This document shows positions 1,957 through 37,961 of a DNA stretch of 64,000 nt, piece by piece. Both the position numbers and the translations under genes were made by a program. Numbering within the stretch: the first letter of the stretch is position 1; every line of letters starts with the position of its first letter. The notes under the pieces were generated by a model that saw nothing but the letters and a program-made list of their open reading frames with translations, made no database searches and had not been told where the DNA came from. The stretch is from a virus (lineage: Duplodnaviria > Heunggongvirae > Uroviricota > Caudoviricetes), in IMG/VR virus record IMGVR_UViG_2563366895_000001, positions 1 to 64,000 of that record; one strand, written 5' to 3'.

Positions 1957-2511
1957 ATGAAAAATCGTAGTTTCAACATCATCGCTTCTATTGCTATGGC
2001 TCTAATGTTAACAGGGTGTAACCAGTCAGAGATTGATAAACTCTCACTTATCGGTGAAGACAAGAGTTATCTTGAAGAACAGGACGAAGCCACTTTTGAA
2101 AAACGGACTCCAGACATAGAACTTTTTGCATTATACGATAAATCGTCACCTGACGCTCAGGAACCACATACCACAGGAATGTTGATTAATGGCAAGGTTG
2201 AGTTGAGCATGACAACAAAAGTTGGCAAATATACCTTTATGCAATTAGATGAAATGCTTACAAAAGAGTATGGGAAACCTGTTGCGACGAAGGACCATAT
2301 CTTTGATAAGGCTGCAATCTCTGGTTTGGACTGCATTGAAACTAAAACCTGTGGTGCTGGTAAGTATTATGAAGTATTCCGAGGAAAGGATCGGTTTGTA
2401 TTATTGATTAATGGAGCTGGTTATTTGTACGAAAAAGAAGGGGTTGCATTGCTTACTATCACGGACAAACAATTAAAAGTTGCTCGTCTGGAAGAGGACA
2501 AAAAACATTAA
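1957..2511 (+). CDS. Lipoprotein
   Basis: N-terminus MKNRSFNIIASIAMALMLTGC is a signal peptide with L-x-G-C lipobox; 184 aa. Confidence 0.6.
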   Translation: MKNRSFNIIASIAMALMLTGCNQSEIDKLSLIGEDKSYLEEQDEATFEKRTPDIELFALYDKSSPDAQEPHTTGMLINGKVELSMTTKVGKYTFMQLDEMLTKEYGKPVATKDHIFDKAAISGLDCIETKTCGAGKYYEVFRGKDRFVLLINGAGYLYEKEGVALLTITDKQLKVARLEEDKKH

Positions 2512-2518
2512 CAAACAG

Positions 2519-2534
2519 GGGCATACGCGCCCCA
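2519..2534. terminator. GC hairpin between convergent genes (possible bidirectional terminator)
   Basis: ggggcatacgcgcccc followed by A/T-rich tract, between the + lipoprotein gene and - ref. Confidence 0.3.
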
Positions 2535-2557
2535 ATATTTTAAAAATAATAAATATA

Positions 2558-3118
2558 TTAGTGCATGATATTTGCCATCTCATAGGCGTCAGCCAGCAAC
2601 TCCATCTCTGACTTGTTCAGCAGGGTGAATTCTTTCTTGCCTCCAACCACACCATCGGCATGAACAGGGACCAGCCAGGGGTATTTTTCTCTTACTTCAG
2701 CCGGTGCTGCATGCTGGTGGTGCCATCTACAAAGGGGCAATTGCTTTTTGTGACAACCCGGCGCGGTACGACCGGAGATATGGTGCAGAGACACCTCTTC
2801 AGATATTACTCCATGCATGTAGCAGGCAATGCAGGGGAGAGTGCCAAGAGCATTGGCGATGGTCCGTTCCTCCGCCGTCGGTGTTCGCCCCTTCAAGCCA
2901 CGAGATTTTATTTTTACCGCACTTTTCCGCGTTTTGCTGGCTGGTGGGCGCTCTTTCTGTTTAGCGATACGGCGGTCGATAGAATCCCGCATTTTCTGAT
3001 ATTGCGATTCTCGCCAGGCGGGGTCAGCCAACTTTTCCCGTTGCCGAGCGATCGCTCGTTCTCTGGCTGCCTTCTGCCACTCGCGGCGCTGTTCAAGTTT
3101 TTGTTCGATTGTTTTCAT
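2558..3118 (-). CDS. ref: Ref recombination-enhancement function, HNH-family endonuclease
   Basis: Begins MKTIEQKLEQRREW at the internal ATG (3118) of the 221-aa track ORF, giving 186 aa; cysteine/histidine-rich C-terminus (CIACYMHG...HHISGR...CRWHH); position downstream of cre as in P1; the upstream ATG at 3223 lies upstream of the promoter/operator. Confidence 0.8.
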   Translation of the reverse strand: MKTIEQKLEQRREWQKAARERAIARQREKLADPAWRESQYQKMRDSIDRRIAKQKERPPASKTRKSAVKIKSRGLKGRTPTAEERTIANALGTLPCIACYMHGVISEEVSLHHISGRTAPGCHKKQLPLCRWHHQHAAPAEVREKYPWLVPVHADGVVGGKKEFTLLNKSEMELLADAYEMANIMH

Positions 3119-3123
3119 ATGGC

Positions 3124-3149
3124 AAAAAAAAGGCGGCCTAATGGCCGCC
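3124..3149 (-). terminator. Intrinsic terminator-like hairpin plus T8 run in the ref leader
   Basis: Minus strand reads GGCGGCCATTAGGCCGCC followed by TTTTTTTT, ending 5 nt before the ref ATG; lies between the putative ref promoter/operator and the start codon. Confidence 0.4.
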
Positions 3150-3216
3150 AATGATGTCAAGGAGTGAAGTAATGGCAACGTCTTCGTAGTTGACAAAAAC
3201 TGCGACTCAATTATAG

Positions 3217-3233
3217 CAACCAATTAGAGCAAT
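3217..3233 (-). promoter_or_regulatory. C1 operator-like site overlapping putative ref promoter
   Basis: Plus strand caaccAATTAGAGCAAT (11 of 17 consensus positions); minus strand has gctataat -10 immediately downstream. Confidence 0.45.
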
Positions 3234-3364
3234 TAAAGTTGTTTATTTATCGCGAATCACATTTTTTCACTTCAGTACCTGTGTGCTATACTCCTTCTTG
3301 ATTGATTGGATGCGGAATACAAACCCGCTCTTTTGTGCAGCCTGGCTCCTTGCCAGGCTTTTTT

Positions 3365-3676
3365 TTATTTCATCATGGAAGCTGTTAACGCTTTGGACCT
3401 TGCTGAACTGATTGAGAGGGCTTTGTCAACGTGCCCCAAAAATTCGCCAAACTCAGACATCACTTTAGCAAAACCGCGCCGTGCTTCTTCCTCGGTGGCA
3501 TTCATCACGAAATGTTCAGCACCACGCATACTTTTGACAGGGAACGCAACGGATATTGAATCAATATCAGGCATTCTATCGCTCAGCTTTACAGTGACAA
3601 TGACGGCTGGCGACTGAATATTAGTGCTTACAGACAGCACTACATATTTTCCGTCGATTTTGAAATCCTTTCTCAT
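3365..3676 (-). CDS. Hypothetical protein downstream of cre (c8-like position)
   Basis: 103-aa ORF; operator-like site at 3693-3709 just upstream. Confidence 0.45.
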   Translation of the reverse strand: MRKDFKIDGKYVVLSVSTNIQSPAVIVTVKLSDRMPDIDSISVAFPVKSMRGAEHFVMNATEEEARRGFAKVMSEFGEFLGHVDKALSISSARSKALTASMMK

Positions 3677-3692
3677 ATGTCACCATAAATAT

Positions 3693-3709
3693 CAAAGAAT
3701 TAGAGCAAT
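3693..3709 (-). promoter_or_regulatory. C1 operator-like site (partial match)
   Basis: caaagaATTAGAGCAAT between the cre stop and the 103-aa ORF. Confidence 0.35.
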
Positions 3710-3726
3710 CATTTACGCGTTAATGG

Positions 3727-4758
3727 CTAATCGCCATCTTCCAGCAGGCGCACCATTGCCCCCGTTTCACTATCCAGGTTACGAATGTAGTTCATGACAA
3801 TATTTACGTTGGTCCAGCCGCCAGCTTGCATGATCTCCGGTATAGAAACTCCGGCGCGGGCCATATCTCGCGCGGCACCGACACGGGCACTATGTCCAGA
3901 CCAGGCCAGGTATCGCTGACCAGAGTCATCTTTTGCCCCGTAAATCAATCGGTGAGTTGCTTCAAAAATCCCTTCCAGGGCGCGAGTTGATAGCTGGCTG
4001 GTGGATGATGGCGCGGCAACACCATTTTTTCTGACGCGGCAAAACAGGTAGTTATTCGGATCATCAGCTACACCAGAGACAGAAATCCATCGCTCAACCA
4101 GTTTAGTTACCCCCAGGCTAAGTGCCTTCTCTACACCAGCGGTGCTAACCAGCGTTTTCGTTCTGCCAATATGGATTAACATTCTCCCACCGTCAGTACG
4201 TGAGATATCTTTAACCCTGATCCTGGAAATTTCGGCTATACGTAACAGGGTGTTATAAGCAATCCCCAGAAATGCCAGATTACGTATATCCTGGCAGCGA
4301 TCGCTATTTTCCATGAGTGAACGAACCTGGTCGAAATCAGTGCGTTCGAACGCCAGTGCCTGTTTTGCACGTTCACCGGCATCAACGTTTTCTTTTCGGA
4401 TCCGTCGCATGACCAGTGAAACAGCATTGCTGTCACTTGGTCGTGGCAGACCGGACCGACGATGAAGCATATTTAGCTGGCCCAAATGTTGCTGGATAGT
4501 TTTCACTGCCAGACCGCGCGCCTGAAGATATAGAAGATAATCGCGAACATCTTCAGGTTCTGCGGGAAACCACTTCCGGTTATTCAACTTGCACCATGCC
4601 GCCCACGACCGGCAAACGGACAGAAGCATTTTCCAGGTATGCTCAGAAAACGCCTGGCGATCCCTGAACATGTCCATCAGGTTCTTGCGAACCTCATCAC
4701 TCGTTGCATCGACCGGTAATGCAGGCAAATTTTGGTGTACGGTCAGTAAATTGGACAT
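3727..4758 (-). CDS. cre: Cre site-specific tyrosine recombinase
   Basis: 343-aa translation recognised as P1 Cre (MSNLLTVHQNLPALPVDATSDEVRKNLMDMF...; catalytic region ...HSARVGAARDMARAGVSIPEIMQAGGWTNVNIVMNYIRNLD); loxP lies 420 bp upstream. Confidence 0.97.
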   Translation of the reverse strand: MSNLLTVHQNLPALPVDATSDEVRKNLMDMFRDRQAFSEHTWKMLLSVCRSWAAWCKLNNRKWFPAEPEDVRDYLLYLQARGLAVKTIQQHLGQLNMLHRRSGLPRPSDSNAVSLVMRRIRKENVDAGERAKQALAFERTDFDQVRSLMENSDRCQDIRNLAFLGIAYNTLLRIAEISRIRVKDISRTDGGRMLIHIGRTKTLVSTAGVEKALSLGVTKLVERWISVSGVADDPNNYLFCRVRKNGVAAPSSTSQLSTRALEGIFEATHRLIYGAKDDSGQRYLAWSGHSARVGAARDMARAGVSIPEIMQAGGWTNVNIVMNYIRNLDSETGAMVRLLEDGD

Positions 4759-4765
4759 TTAACAC

Positions 4766-33662: not shown

Positions 33663-36600
33663 GTAGCCATAACGTCATGAGCAACACCACGAGTGTCTCC
33701 CTTACAAGACACAGAACGTCTGGCAAAGAGAGGTTCCACTCTGAAGCCACTGTCCTGATAAAGTTCTCTGATGTTTGGCGCGCCACTGTTAGTAATGAGT
33801 ACCTTTGCACCTCGGCGATGAGCATCCGTCAACAGAGACACCAGGCGTTTTTGCTCTTCAAACTTAAAGTCATGACCGGAATAGTTCGTGAATCCCTCTG
33901 TATTTGGAAGCGGTTCATATGGCGGATCGCAAAAAATGACATCTCCTTCTCCGGCAGCTTCAATCACCGCAGCAAAATCACCACATACAAACTCAGAACG
34001 CCCTTCCGCACCAAGGAAGACTTCCATCTCCTGCAATGGGAAATACGGAGTTTTATACTTCCCATAACCGACATTGAACTCACCGGCTTGGTTGTAACGC
34101 GTCAATCCATTAAAACAATGTCGGTTCAGGAACAAAAACGCCGCTGCGAGATGTAAATCATCATAGACTTGTTTGTTAAACGCATTCCGTACTGCCAGGA
34201 ATCCCTCCTGGGTGTTGTAGTCCAGGAAGAAACGATGTGCCAGAGTGATAAGTGAATGCGCCTCGCGTTGCAGAGTCTTGTAAAAGTTAATCAGGTCAGC
34301 ATTCACATCATTTAGCAGATTTTCCTGGTATCCGGCATTTATGAAGACAGCTCCGCCACCAACGAAAGGTTCAATCAGGCGCTTCCCTTCTGGCAAATAG
34401 CGAAAGATTTGTTCCAGAACACCAAATTTTCCACCAGCCCATTTGAATATGGACCGTTCGAATTCTGCCGCTGGTTTAACTTTTCGCTCTTTTGTTTCAC
34501 TTCCTTCTTTCTGCCGACATACGGCCTTAGTAATCCGATCGCCAATCCAGCACATTACTGGTATTGCCATACTATTGCCGATCGCTTTGTAACGCGGTCC
34601 GTCAGCTGCAAGCATCGCGGCCTCTTCTTCGCTTAAATCTGGATAGTGATTGCGAAGATATGCCAGTTCATCTGAATTAACTGTTTTACGCTTTTCCGTC
34701 GGGATCAACGTATGCCCATCAGGAAAACCTTGCAGCCTTTCACATTCGACAGGGGTAAGACGGCGCATTCTACCGTCGCCGAGCAATACAATTGGTGCTT
34801 CATGGTTACATGTCAAAGTTGGTGCCGAATTATCGGTTTTTATCTCAGCCCCTCCTTGCCCATGTGCCATGGCAATTATGTTTGTATCATCGCAAGTTCT
34901 GATAGCGATGTTTGAAGTATATCTGGTAGTTTCCTTCCCCTCGCCTCTGCTCGGCGCAATATCCCGGCGCACGCCTTCGAACTCAAAAAGTACCGTTGCG
35001 GGATCGAGGTCTGTTCGAGCACTTGCGACAACAAACACGCGTCGGCGTCGTTGTGCCACTCCGAAGTATTGGGCATCAAGGATTCTCCAGGCCACTTTTC
35101 GCTGCGATCCATAAATACAACCACACTGCGGCCACTTTGGAGCATGGCAACCGGTTTTGCCATCCCACCGCCAGAACGCGTTACTTTTTCCTGATTCAGG
35201 TCGATCACCTGGTTCAAATGGCGCATCTTCTCCAGCCAATCCGGCAAGGAAACATCCGAAGGCGTTATCTGCCGATGACAAGACTCCTGGGACATTTTCC
35301 CAGACGATAACGGCTGGTTTGAGAAATGACTCAGCCCGTTTGTCGTCAATTGCATTTGCAAGCTCCACATACTTTAAAGTTAGCGCGCCACGCTCATCAT
35401 CAAGCCCACCACGTAATCCCGCGATACTGAATGCCTGACAGTTATGGACCACCGCACCATTGAGGATATAGGAATGATCACCTTCGACTTCTATGTTGTA
35501 TACAGTATCTAGGCCTACCGATTTAAACTCTTTGACTGTTCGTAAAAGCATTCCATGAGCCAATCTTGATTTACGTGACAATTTCTGCGGGCAGATTGTT
35601 ACCTGATAATAATTCCGTTGATTTACCACGCGATCCTCGATCACTTTTTTGGGCTCAACTTCAATAAAGCTGACCGAAGAAACATAACCACAAGTCTGTG
35701 ACAACCCCGCAACGCCCCAAGCAAGCGCAGGACTAACACTATTAATTCTAAATCCCGCTTTACCACTTGGTGTCCCATCAGTATCAAGATAGCCTTGTAA
35801 AAACACATGACGCAATGGATGCGACATCACCCATGCAGGGATACGCTTAGCATGGCTTAACTCGCCAAAATGTTCATTAAGCCAATTGGCATAACACGTA
35901 TCATTCAAGGTTACTTTGATGCTCCCTCGGATTTCGCTTGCCACGGAAAATATGTTTTCTGGTATGCGGCAATGAAACTTTCTCAATTTCTGGCAATTTA
36001 TGCCAAAAACAACCGCCTTCTTAGATTTACCTCTCCATCTCCTAATATATCCATCGCCAACATAAGCGCCCGCAAGATACATAGCCTGTTCTTCAGACAA
36101 GAACCGAGAACAAATATCTGGAGATGCAATATTGAAATTAGTTAGAGCGCACCATTGATATCCCGGCATATCACATGCTGCTCGCCATTCCGGTTCAGAC
36201 AACAACTCTCTCTTAAAATATGTGCCATTTTTCCGGGTGTTTTGGGCTTTCCACCGAACAGCCAGGAAGGGATGGTCATTGGTTGTTCTTATACCTAAAG
36301 GCTGCCCAACGGCATTAAGTAACCCCGTATTAGCTATTTTTGAACCAACTCTTTTTACTTGTTGTAACCGCCCGAGATGACTGACTACGTAATCGCCAGG
36401 GCAAACATCTTCTATTGGTTTATAACCATTTTTACAAAGAACCATATGCCCCGCGGTAAAACATGGTGTTCCCCCGACGAGCACGTCAGGGGATTCGATT
36501 TCCCCAGCCAAGACTTTTTTGGCAAGTTTTGTCATGTCGCCAAGGTTGGCGACATGGGGCCAGCGGAGCGCAAGAACGGCCGATGGAAAAGGCTCGATTT

Positions 36601-36694
36601 CAGCAAACCACGCCGGACGCATACCCAACGGTTCCCAGGCAATACTCGCGGCTTCAATTCCACTGCAAACAGATCCATAGCACAGCTCTTTCAC
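33653..36694 (-). CDS. dmt: Dmt bifunctional DNA methyltransferase (N-terminal C5-cytosine domain, C-terminal Dam-like N6-adenine domain) carrying an intein
   Basis: 1013-aa ORF; C5 motifs GGTP...CQAFSIAG (IV, split by insert), VIVWENV (VI), QRRRRVFVV (VIII); Dam-like motifs [20 protein letters not shown]. Confidence 0.85.
35441..36463 (-). other. Intein (Hint domain with LAGLIDADG homing-endonuclease insert) within dmt
   Basis: 341-aa insert: starts [10 protein letters not shown] (Cys1), block B RTTNDH, LAGLIDADG motifs [11 protein letters not shown] and [10 protein letters not shown], block [23 protein letters not shown], +1 residue Cys of CQAFS; codon boundaries verified on the DNA. Confidence 0.85.
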
Positions 36695-37596: not shown

Positions 37597-37945
37597 GTTG
37601 TAACCCTTGAATATCAACCACAGAAAGCTCGTCTTTGTAGAAAAAGGCCAGGTTGTGGCACCCCCTCGTTTGAGCGTATGAGCTGGGACCAATTTCGTTC
37701 TTCCAGACAAATGGCTTCAAATCCGTACGGCGAAGCATAAAAACGCGATTTGTTCCGCTCTGATTCCCAATGAGGCAAAAGCCTTCTTTCACCTTGATAG
37801 CCTGCAAGTTGTCGAGTTCACCGCTGGTTACACGGCTATCGAACTCCTTGCGGCTTATTAGCTCCATCTGCATCTGACGACTCCAAACAAATGCCCATTG
37901 AAGGGCGATGGCTGAATGGTACCGAAAATACGACATAAAAAACAA
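37589..37945 (-). CDS. Hypothetical protein (start uncertain)
   Basis: 118-aa ORF; C1 operator overlaps its annotated start. Confidence 0.4.
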
Positions 37946-37961
37946 TATTTATTAGAGCAAT
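37945..37961 (-). promoter_or_regulatory. C1 operator
   Basis: AtATTTATTAGAGCAAT, 16 of 17. Confidence 0.55.

What the first reader, a model, noticed from the sequence alone, without database searches (positions are those of the whole stretch)
35441..36463. LAGLIDADG intein inserted at the catalytic cysteine of the Dmt C5-methyltransferase domain
The 1013-aa dmt ORF reads ...VLVGGTP / [13 protein letters not shown] ... [10 protein letters not shown] / [12 protein letters not shown].... Deleting the 341-aa insert restores the C5-MTase motif [14 protein letters not shown], so the +1 nucleophile of the intein is the catalytic Cys. The insert has the expected intein blocks: Cys1, TxxH (RTTNDH), two LAGLIDADG motifs ([21 protein letters not shown]), and terminal VVHN. 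Methyltransferase activity of this fusion would depend on protein splicing, and the embedded endonuclease could home into intein-less dmt alleles. I am not aware of a described intein at this site in P1-family methyltransferases.
Basis: partly seen in the sequence, partly recalled or inferred. Interest (0 to 1): 0.85.

Follow-up and report, generated by a model that had tools for sequence, protein, structure and literature searches.

The report
Mobile intein splitting phage Dmt methyltransferase
A P1-type phage-plasmid carries a 341-residue self-splicing protein element with its own homing nuclease, inserted at the catalytic cysteine of the cytosine-methylase half of its Dmt enzyme; it is a genuine but fairly typical intein that nobody seems to have annotated or described.

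Summary
The 1013-aa dmt ORF (33653-36694, minus strand) contains an in-frame 341-aa insert (36463-35441). Removing it gives a 672-aa protein that is 97% identical, without gaps, to phage P7 Dam/Dmt, and it restores motif [14 protein letters not shown].

The insert has every sequence mark of a class 1 intein: Cys1, TNDH, a block F/G ending VVHN, and Cys+1. It also has two LAGLIDADG motifs with their acidic residues. A confident AlphaFold model (pLDDT 93) matches PI-SceI, TliVMA and PI-PfuI.

The intein is sporadic. It occurs in about 27% of P1-like plasmids in PLSDB and in 152 of 5426 complete E. coli genomes. It is absent from reference P1 and from P7. It is less diverged than its flanks, shows pN/pS of about 0.3, and sits in two different target-recognition-domain (TRD) backgrounds. 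It is perfectly linked to a synonymous CCA/CCT difference at the junction. All of this fits spread by homing.

Related inteins occupy the same P|C site in C5 methylases of many bacteria, archaea and phages. It is therefore a new member of a known kind, unannotated and apparently undescribed for P1. Splicing and cleavage have not been tested.

The parts
33653..36694 (-). dmt precursor ORF, 1013 aa plus stop: N-extein, intein and C-extein (the rest of the C5-MTase, then the Dam domain)
   Evidence: ORF; PF00145, PF02086, LAGLIDADG_3, Hint_2; the exact protein is in NCBI, named only as a Dam family methyltransferase
36464..36694 (-). N-extein, aa 1-77: C5-MTase motif I (SVCSGIEAA) through ...VLVGGTP of motif IV
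35441..36463 (-). Intein, 341 aa, class 1 type with an embedded LAGLIDADG homing endonuclease; GC 43% against 49% in the exteins
36461..36463 (-). Cys1 (block A, CFTAGH), the nucleophile for the first acyl shift
   Evidence: C1, F2, A4 and G5 are invariant in 13 homologues
36272..36283 (-). Block B, T61-N-D-H64 (TxxH)
   Evidence: T61 and H64 invariant
36050..36076 (-). First LAGLIDADG motif, LAGAYVGDG (aa 130-138); the acidic residue is D137
   Evidence: G132 and G138 invariant, D137 in at least 90%; helix 124-137
35774..35800 (-). Second LAGLIDADG motif, LQGYLDTDG (aa 222-230); the acidic residue is D229
   Evidence: G224 and G230 invariant, D229 in at least 90%; helix 218-229; PF14528 covers aa 221-284
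35441..35503 (-). Blocks F and [22 protein letters not shown] (aa 321-341), with the terminal His-Asn
   Evidence: TIGR01443 intein_Cterm, 25.9 bits against a cut-off of 15.6; (aligns to the Spl DnaX mini-intein C-terminus)
35438..35440 (-). Cys+1: the intein's transesterification nucleophile and, after splicing, the catalytic Cys of motif IV (PCQ)
   Evidence: (aligns with the PCQAFSI motif of M.HhaI)
34460..35440 (-). C-extein part 1: the rest of the C5-MTase (motif [18 protein letters not shown], a short P7-type target-recognition region, [25 protein letters not shown]) plus a linker
33665..34459 (-). C-extein part 2: Dam (D12-class N6-adenine) methyltransferase domain, aa 746-1010 of the precursor; not interrupted
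   Evidence: PF02086, 1.7e-55; TIGR00571, 2.9e-72
37945..37961 (-). C1 repressor operator Odmt, overlapping promoter Pdmt, upstream of the uhr-hrdC-dmt operon; implies expression when the phage is derepressed
   Evidence: 1 mismatch to the operator consensus; near-identical to the region of NC_005856 annotated

Best explanation
This is a bona fide class 1 intein with an embedded LAGLIDADG homing endonuclease. It lies in the dmt gene of a P1-type phage-plasmid, immediately before the catalytic cysteine of C5-methyltransferase motif IV.

Proposed mechanism. The uhr-hrdC-dmt operon is transcribed when C1 repression is lifted. It gives a 1013-aa precursor whose C5 catalytic loop is split by the intein. 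The intein excises itself by the standard four steps:
1. N-S acyl shift at Cys1.
2. Transesterification to Cys+1.
3. Cyclisation of Asn341, assisted by His340.
4. S-N shift.

This yields a 672-aa P7-type Dmt with [12 protein letters not shown] restored, plus a free 341-aa endonuclease. When an intein-less dmt allele is in the same cell (mixed infection, or infection of a lysogen), the endonuclease would cut it at the empty junction. Repair from the intein-carrying copy would then copy in the intein together with short flanking tracts.

Shown here: the precise insertion, the motifs, the predicted fold, the sporadic distribution, and the population signatures of recent spread under purifying selection.

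Inferred, not shown: splicing, DNA cleavage, the timing of expression, and the dependence of C5 activity on splicing.
For: Clean insertion:
- P1 Dmt lacks exactly the 341 aa.
- The spliced product is 97% identical to P7 Dam with no gaps.
- PF00145 becomes contiguous across the junction and improves from 5.6e-29 to 2.6e-35.
- The junction aligns with the M.HhaI PCQAFSI motif.

Intein features:
- Domain hits: PF14528 1.7e-8; Hint_2 28.5 bits against a cut-off of 28.4; TIGR01443 above its cut-off.
- C1, T61, H64, G132, G138, G224, G230 and N341 are invariant, and D137 and D229 are present in at least 90%, among homologues down to 24% identity.

Fold:
- AlphaFold2 pLDDT 93 and pTM 0.90.
- The top Foldseek hits are PI-SceI (E 5e-17), the TliVMA intein, PI-PfuI and PI-PkoII, followed by I-DmoI and I-SceI.

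Mobility:
- The intein is in 133 PLSDB plasmids, while 362 have an uninterrupted junction.
- It is in 152 of 5426 complete E. coli genomes, all at least 99% identical.
- In IMG/VR there are 12 copies at 99-100% identity among the loci returned, against 77 empty junctions.
- It sits in Dmt alleles with two different target-recognition regions, 1013 aa and 1095 aa.
- Mean diversity is 0.58% (max 1.5%) in the intein, 3.5% (max 9.5%) in the N-extein and 1.5% (max 2.9%) in the C-extein.
- The intein has 12 synonymous and 13 non-synonymous polymorphisms, pN/pS about 0.31, binomial P = 0.004. No sampled copy has a stop codon.
- The Pro(-1) codon is CCA in 18 of 18 intein-carrying alleles and CCT in 83 of 83 intein-less alleles.
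- A plaque-forming laboratory P1 stock (OP279344) carries an identical intein.
Against: - No experiment shows splicing or cleavage.
- The Pfam Intein_splicing model scores below its gathering threshold (22 bits against 35.8), and Hint_2 only just reaches its own.
- The -1 residue is Pro. From my own knowledge of engineered intein systems, Pro at -1 is unfavourable for the first step. However, Pro(-1) is the rule in this intein family (26 of 40 genomic and 66 of 74 viral cases).
- The P1-type copies are at least 99% identical, so purifying selection is judged from only 25 polymorphisms.
- The sampled alleles are not phylogenetically independent, so the P values are optimistic.
- General recombination between P1-like genomes could move the intein without any endonuclease.
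- It is uncertain whether the Dmt C5 domain is active at all in P1: the NC_005856 annotation says 'perhaps'.
Confidence: 0.85

Rival explanations
1. The intein still splices, but its endonuclease is inactive or irrelevant. On this view the patchy distribution comes from vertical descent plus ordinary homologous recombination among mosaic P1-like genomes, not from homing.
For: - P1-like genomes are highly mosaic. The dmt gene alone has four length classes of target-recognition region.
- 31 intein-less alleles share the flanking haplotype of the intein-carrying ones except at position -1. The intein may therefore simply mark one lineage of alleles.
- Many natural inteins carry decayed endonucleases (general knowledge).
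Against: - Both LAGLIDADG acidic residues and the nuclease fold are intact.
- pN/pS is about 0.31 over the whole intein, and none of the polymorphisms falls in a motif residue.
- The intein is 3-6 times less diverged than the adjacent N-extein, and it occurs on at least two N-side haplotypes and in two target-recognition backgrounds.
Confidence: 0.25
2. The insert is a splicing-dead relic. On this view the C5 domain is permanently disrupted, and the gene is kept only for its C-terminal Dam domain, which P1 needs for pac-site methylation.
For: - The Dam domain is separate and intact.
- Dam function is the one known to matter for P1 (PMC12707154).
- C5 activity of P1 Dmt is annotated only as 'perhaps'.
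- Reference P1 itself carries an unusual G74W change in motif IV.
- Decayed relatives exist elsewhere: L058 and L125 with stop codons, and H129 with a frameshift.
Against: - All splicing residues are present: C1, T61, H64, H340, N341 and C+1.
- All C5 motifs in both exteins are intact.
- No stop codon or frameshift occurs in the 18 sampled copies, and 153 of 153 E. coli copies are full length at 99% identity or more.
- Non-synonymous changes are under-represented.
Confidence: 0.08
3. The insert is not an intein but another kind of Hint-domain element, such as a bacterial intein-like domain, or a free-standing endonuclease gene fused in frame.
For: A weak phmmer hit to a 'bacterial intein-like domain' structure (2lwy, E 0.87).
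Against: - The C-terminus is a canonical HN followed by Cys+1.
- The insertion is exact at a conserved motif, and the host sequence is restored on deletion.
- The whole-length fold matches true inteins.
- The nuclease is nested inside the Hint fold: strands 1-107 and 260-340 flank helices 124-257.
Confidence: 0.02

Closest known systems
PI-SceI (yeast VMA1 intein) and the archaeal TliVMA, PI-PfuI and PI-PkoII inteins: class 1 inteins with a nested LAGLIDADG homing endonuclease
   Same: Both have a Hint splicing fold interrupted by a two-motif, pseudo-dimeric LAGLIDADG nuclease. Both have Cys1, TxxH, a terminal HN and Cys+1. These are the best structural matches (E 5e-17 to 3e-9, TM 0.52-0.63).
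   Different: Sequence identity is only 11-16%. At 341 aa, this intein is smaller than PI-SceI (454 aa). The host protein is unrelated (a DNA methyltransferase, not an ATPase or polymerase). The -1 residue is Pro. Activity has not been tested.
Inteins in actinobacteriophage DNA methylases (Kelley et al. 2016, PMC5050341; Gosselin et al. 2023, PMC9957025; bioRxiv 10.1101/2025.01.02.630785)
   Same: These are LAGLIDADG inteins in orphan phage DNA methylases. They are patchily distributed, the intein is less diverged than the extein, and they transfer between divergent methylase alleles. The 2025 survey lists C-5 methylase (IPR001525) as an intein host.
   Different: The Kelley cases (DNMT-1/2) are N6/N4 methylases. 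The hosts are Actinobacteria phages. None of these papers mentions P1-type phage-plasmids, Enterobacteria or the bifunctional Dcm-Dam fusion. The actinobacterial relatives found here are only 28-30% identical.
The wider set of inteins at motif IV of C5 methyltransferases, found here in Mannheimia, Metarhizobium, Lachnospiraceae, Bifidobacteriaceae, Arthrobacter, Parcubacteria, a Desulfurococcales archaeon and many IMG/VR contigs
   Same: The insertion point is the same, directly before the catalytic Cys: xP|C...HN|C-x-x-x-S. This holds for 40 of 69 genomic loci and 74 of 80 viral loci. The spliced exteins hit PF00145 in 7 of 8 tested. The block A sequence CF(T/P)AG and the block F sequence NIEV..D.SY are shared.
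   Different: The nearest non-P1 relatives are 52-55% identical and most are 27-33%. Some have Asp, Glu or Ser at -1. One has Ser at +1. Some are decayed or are mini-inteins (P0023).
P1 Dmt and P7 Dam (the intein-less orthologues)
   Same: The operon (uhr-hrdC-dmt), the C1 operator and the Dcm-Dam fusion architecture are the same. The spliced product is 97% identical to P7 Dam.
   Different: These lack the 1023-nt insert. Reference P1 has a longer target-recognition region (754 aa) and a G74W change in motif IV.

Membership tests
Class 1 intein | In-frame insertion that is absent from orthologues and whose removal restores a conserved host motif | tested here: met
Class 1 intein | Block A: Cys or Ser as the first residue | tested here: met
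   Cys1 (CFTAGH), invariant in 13 homologues
Class 1 intein | Block B: TxxH | tested here: met
   T61-N-D-H64; T61 and H64 invariant
Class 1 intein | Blocks F and G: C-terminal His-Asn followed by Cys, Ser or Thr at +1 | tested here: met
   VVHN|C. TIGR01443 scores 25.9-28.9 bits against a cut-off of 15.6. It aligns to the Spl DnaX intein C-terminus.
Class 1 intein | Hint (horseshoe beta) fold | tested here: met
   Prediction only: AF2 pLDDT 93, with Foldseek matches to the PI-SceI, TliVMA and PI-PfuI inteins. Pfam Hint_2 scores 28.5 against a threshold of 28.4. Pfam Intein_splicing scores 22 against 35.8, below its threshold.
Class 1 intein | Protein splicing that yields ligated exteins and a free intein | not testable with these tools
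   Needs expression followed by SDS-PAGE or mass spectrometry
LAGLIDADG homing endonuclease (two-motif, monomeric) | Two LAGLIDADG helices, each ending in a catalytic acidic residue | tested here: met
   LAGAYVGD137G and LQGYLDTD229G. PF14528 E 1.7e-8, above its threshold. Conserved in homologues. Helices 124-137 and 218-229 in the model.
LAGLIDADG homing endonuclease (two-motif, monomeric) | The alpha-beta-beta-alpha-beta-beta-alpha core fold | tested here: met
   Foldseek matches to I-DmoI and I-SceI, E about 1e-4, target TM 0.57-0.59; on a predicted model
LAGLIDADG homing endonuclease (two-motif, monomeric) | Site-specific cleavage of the intein-less allele, and homing | not testable with these tools
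   Indirect support only: the patchy distribution, the intein being less diverged than its flanks, and the linked junction polymorphism
C5 DNA methyltransferase (host protein, N-terminal half) | The conserved motifs, including PCQ (IV), ENV (VI) and QxRxR (VIII), plus motifs IX and X | tested here: met
   PF00145 E 2.6e-35 on the spliced protein. Alignment to M.HhaI across PCQAFSI, ENV and RRLTPxECxRxxGFPD. The motifs are visible.
C5 DNA methyltransferase (host protein, N-terminal half) | m5C methylation activity | not testable with these tools
   The P1 annotation says 'perhaps at C5 cytosine'
Dam (D12-class N6-adenine methyltransferase, C-terminal half) | Domain model match above the curated cut-off | tested here: met
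   PF02086 188.9 bits and TIGR00571 243.6 bits against a cut-off of 114.85

The most novel reading that the evidence does not exclude
The intein is more than a passenger. It would act as a post-translational gate on the phage's C5 methylase, while also being an actively homing element in natural E. coli populations. On this reading, slow or condition-dependent splicing would delay or tune cytosine methylation relative to Dam methylation during lytic growth. Possible causes are the unusual Pro at -1, or a Cys1/Cys+1 redox pair. The CCA/CCT junction difference, which is strictly linked to the intein, would mark part of the nuclease's recognition site. This would give the first genetically tractable natural intein-homing system in E. 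coli and P1.
Probability: 0.12. Interest if true: 0.75.

Novelty: new member of a known kind. Interest (0 to 1): 0.45.

Why it matters
P1 is a classical model phage, and P1-like phage-plasmids are common carriers of resistance genes in E. coli and Salmonella. About a quarter of them carry this intact intein, as does at least one working laboratory 'P1' stock. Public annotation nevertheless calls the gene only a Dam family methyltransferase. I found no paper that mentions the intein.

If it is active, it offers three things:
- A natural intein and homing endonuclease in the most tractable bacterial host. This is useful for measuring homing, co-conversion and intein gain or loss in phage-plasmid populations.
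- A new LAGLIDADG specificity.
- A caution for anyone interpreting Dmt length variants or methylomes of P1-like elements.

It also shows that motif IV of C5 methyltransferases is a widely used intein insertion point across bacteria, archaea and phages. Conceptually it fits the established rule that inteins sit at catalytic sites of nucleic-acid enzymes, so it confirms current understanding and does not change it.

Tried and rejected
- Literature. Nine searches combined intein with P1, P1-like, phage-plasmid, dmt, DNA methylase, cytosine methyltransferase, cytosine-specific and OP279344. None found a paper on an intein in P1-family dmt. The hits were engineered toxin-intein citations, reference-list mentions, or actinophage methylase inteins.
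- Sequence search of solved structures with the intein alone gave only weak hits (best E 0.0014). The fold search was needed.
- The Pfam Intein_splicing model is below threshold. I did not count it as support.
- First diversity estimate for the N-extein. It was inflated by outliers (L092 differs by 46%, and L099 is truncated). I recomputed without them.
- The idea that intein-less alleles with the intein-type flanking haplotype (for example CP043288) arose by precise intein loss. This is unlikely, because all 31 of them have CCT and none has the intein-linked CCA. They look more like the recipient or ancestral haplotype.
- A group I or group II intron. Rejected: the reading frame is continuous and the element has protein-splicing blocks.
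- An assembly artefact. Rejected: the intein is present in 152 complete genomes.
- tRNA scan. It looked for the tRNA-Asn and tRNA-Thr genes that follow dmt in P1 and P7, and found none in the window.
Full report
**1. The observation**

The window carries a 1013-aa ORF on the minus strand, 33653-36694. Pfam finds a C5 cytosine methylase (PF00145) in its N-terminal half, broken into four stretches. It finds a D12/Dam N6-adenine methylase (PF02086, 1.7e-55) in the C-terminal half. In between are a LAGLIDADG_3 domain and a Hint_2 domain.

The protein reads ...VLVGGTP|CFTAGHMV...AVVHN|[12 protein letters not shown].... I checked the codons of TNDH (36272-36283), LAGAYVGDG (36050-36076), LQGYLDTDG (35774-35800), the terminal HN (35441-35446) and Cys+1 (35438-35440) against the raw sequence.

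**2. It is a clean insertion**

- In an alignment with reference P1 Dmt (NC_005856, 754 aa), the P1 protein lacks exactly these 341 residues and nothing else at that point.
- A 730-nt query made by joining the two flanks matches P1, P7, SJ46, JL22 and others in one uninterrupted piece at 95-98% identity. Intein-carrying genomes match it in two pieces that break at base 230/231.
- The spliced 672-aa protein is 649/672 identical to the 672-aa P7 Dam/Dmt, with no gaps.
- On the spliced protein, PF00145 runs continuously across the junction (aa 8-135) and improves to E 2.6e-35.
- The region aligns to M.HhaI as 'd+l +g PCQAFSI+G'. By established knowledge of C5 methyltransferases, the Cys of PCQ (Cys81 in M.HhaI) is the catalytic nucleophile. 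The intein's +1 residue is therefore the methylase's catalytic cysteine.

**3. It is an intein with a homing endonuclease**

- NCBIfam's intein C-terminal model (TIGR01443) scores above its cut-off.
- PF14528 (LAGLIDADG_3) is above its threshold, Hint_2 is just at its threshold, and Intein_splicing is below its threshold.
- I aligned the insert with 12 homologues that are 24-53% identical to it. C1, F2, A4, G5, T61, H64, G132, G138, G224, G230, V321, N323 and N341 are invariant. D137 and D229, the acidic residues that end each LAGLIDADG helix, are conserved in at least 90%.
- An AlphaFold2 model built on that alignment is confident: pLDDT 93.1, pTM 0.90. It shows beta strands at both ends (1-107 and 260-340) around a helical core (124-257).
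- Foldseek against the PDB returns PI-SceI (E 4.6e-17), the TliVMA intein, PI-PfuI, the PhoVMA intein and PI-PkoII over the whole length. I-DmoI and I-SceI then match the nuclease core.
- The element therefore meets every sequence and fold criterion of a class 1 intein with a nested two-motif LAGLIDADG endonuclease. Splicing and cleavage cannot be tested here.

**4. Distribution**

- The same intein, at 99.5-100% identity, is in five phage records. These are RCS47, vB_EcoM-Ro157c2YLVW and a laboratory stock deposited as 'Escherichia phage P1 del res del mod' (OP279344). That stock was used as phage P1 in Argonaute studies.
- It is also in 133 PLSDB plasmids of E. coli, Salmonella and Shigella.
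- Of 497 PLSDB plasmids that hold the dmt 5' region, 362 have an uninterrupted junction. About 27% therefore carry the intein.
- In complete E. coli genomes it occurs in 152 of 5426. All copies are at least 99% identical and full length, with 148 on plasmids and 5 on chromosomes.
- IMG/VR holds 12 copies at 99-100% identity among the loci returned and 77 empty junctions.
- Public annotation never mentions an intein. The exact protein is named 'Dam family site-specific DNA-(adenine-N6)-methyltransferase'.

**5. Signatures of mobility and selection**

- The intein sits in Dmt alleles with two different target-recognition regions: 1013 aa (P7-type, as in this window) and 1095 aa (P1-type, as in RCS47).
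- Among 16 intein-carrying alleles, mean pairwise divergence is 0.58% (max 1.5%) in the intein. It is 3.5% (max 9.5%) in the 231-nt N-extein and 1.5% (max 2.9%) in the first 480 nt of the C-extein. The Dam part differs by up to 8%.
- The intein has 12 synonymous and 13 non-synonymous polymorphisms, giving pN/pS of about 0.31. The binomial P is 0.004 against the neutral site ratio. None of the polymorphisms touches a motif residue, and none of the 18 copies has a stop codon.
- The codon for Pro(-1) is CCA in all 18 intein-carrying alleles and CCT in all 83 intein-less alleles. The nominal Fisher P is 3e-20, but the alleles are not independent.
- Intein-carrying alleles share a C-side haplotype over roughly +24 to +127 that differs from the commonest intein-less haplotype. 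About 30 intein-less alleles also have this haplotype.
- On the N side, intein-carrying alleles fall into two haplotypes.
- Together these data fit an element that entered one dmt haplotype, carried at least the adjacent base with it, and has since moved among backgrounds faster than the gene diverges. They do not by themselves separate endonuclease-driven homing from ordinary recombination.
- The intein's GC content (43%) is below that of the exteins (49%). This is consistent with a foreign origin.

**6. Expression context**

The C1 operator Odmt and the promoter Pdmt, both annotated in NC_005856, are conserved upstream of the operon at 37945-37961. The Oban operators abut the dmt stop codon at 33635-33662. 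By inference from P1 biology, the precursor, and hence the nuclease, would be made on derepression or lytic growth. That is when two P1-type genomes can meet.

The Dam domain is uninterrupted. The function P1 is known to need, GATC methylation at pac (PMC12707154), therefore need not depend on splicing. This may make the site a tolerant one.

**7. Comparison with what is known**

Searching with the intein finds relatives almost only in C5 methylases. Scans of one genome per species and of IMG/VR give 40 of 69 full-length genomic matches, and 74 of 80 viral matches, in the same context: xP|C...HN|C-x-x-x-S. The hosts include:
- Metarhizobium;
- Lachnospiraceae and other Clostridia;
- Pseudoscardovia and Bifidobacterium;
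- Arthrobacter;
- Mesorhizobium;
- Gilliamella;
- Bacteroidota;
- a Parcubacteria MAG;
- a Desulfurococcales archaeon.

Spliced exteins from eight diverse loci hit PF00145 in seven cases. The nearest non-P1 relatives are 52-55% identical.

In the literature:
- Mycobacteriophage DNMT inteins are in N6/N4 methylases (PMC5050341).
- An actinophage methylase family with an intein shows the same pattern, with the intein less diverged than the extein (PMC9957025).
- A 2025 preprint lists C-5 methylase among actinophage intein hosts.
- I found nothing on P1-family dmt. The library covers open-access papers only.

**8. Verdict**

The finding is real and correctly interpreted. It is a new, unannotated member of a known kind, and the kind turns out to be widespread at this exact site. 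It is of moderate interest, mainly because it sits in a model phage and host where splicing and homing can be tested directly.

Noticed in passing
L003 (NC_005856) 2500-4764, codon 74; compare window 36473-36475: Reference P1 Dmt reads VLVWGTPCQ. This is a G74W change (GGG to TGG) in the conserved motif IV. It is unique among the 83 intein-less junctions sampled. It may be an inactivating change in a laboratory strain, which would explain why C5 activity of P1 Dmt is annotated only as 'perhaps'.
   Followed up: partly
L053 (Sphingopyxis sp. GW247-27LB) 2501-3547 and L116 (IMG/VR): A related intein at the same motif IV site has Ser, not Cys, at +1 (AGTP|C...VVHN|SQGFSLAG). The spliced methylase would therefore lack its catalytic cysteine.
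   Followed up: no
L044 (Ruminococcus MAG) 2501-3520: A related intein lies after ...FAVWENV and before CGAYSS. This looks like motif VI (ENV) of a C5 methylase and not motif IV, so it may be a second insertion site for this intein lineage.
   Followed up: no
P0011, L110, L112 (Mannheimia haemolytica; the cluster was seen on 578 contigs): A 47-48% identical intein at the same site is followed by a truncated C-extein (CQSDKGGTVKASGGGFEWRE*). This is a decayed methylase gene that keeps an intact-looking intein.
   Followed up: no
L058, L125; H129 (NZ_CP027223.1 35242-36263): Decayed copies exist. Two distant relatives have stop codons in the intein. One E. coli copy of the P1-type intein is 1022 nt, and its gene is annotated as two CDS.
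   Followed up: no
dmt alleles in L003-L008, compared with window 34700-35000: The target-recognition region of the C5 domain comes in at least four length classes: Dmt of 672, 754, 807 and 862 aa without the intein. This implies frequent swapping of specificity modules among P1-like elements.
   Followed up: partly
window 1-64000: ARAGORN finds no tRNA genes in the window. P1, P7 and OP279344 have tRNA-Asn and tRNA-Thr about 0.7 kb downstream of dmt.
   Followed up: partly
window 5254-55012 (14 sites, e.g. 33646-33662 and 37945-37961): There are 14 matches, with up to 3 mismatches, to the P1 C1 repressor operator consensus ATTGCTCTAATAAATTT, against 0.31 expected by chance. This confirms a P1-type immunity network across the window.
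   Followed up: partly
L092 (IMGVR_UViG_2597489893_000002), upstream of 2501: This locus has an identical intein, but its 231 nt upstream differ by 46% from the usual N-extein. The cause could be a rearrangement, or a different N-terminal context.
   Followed up: no
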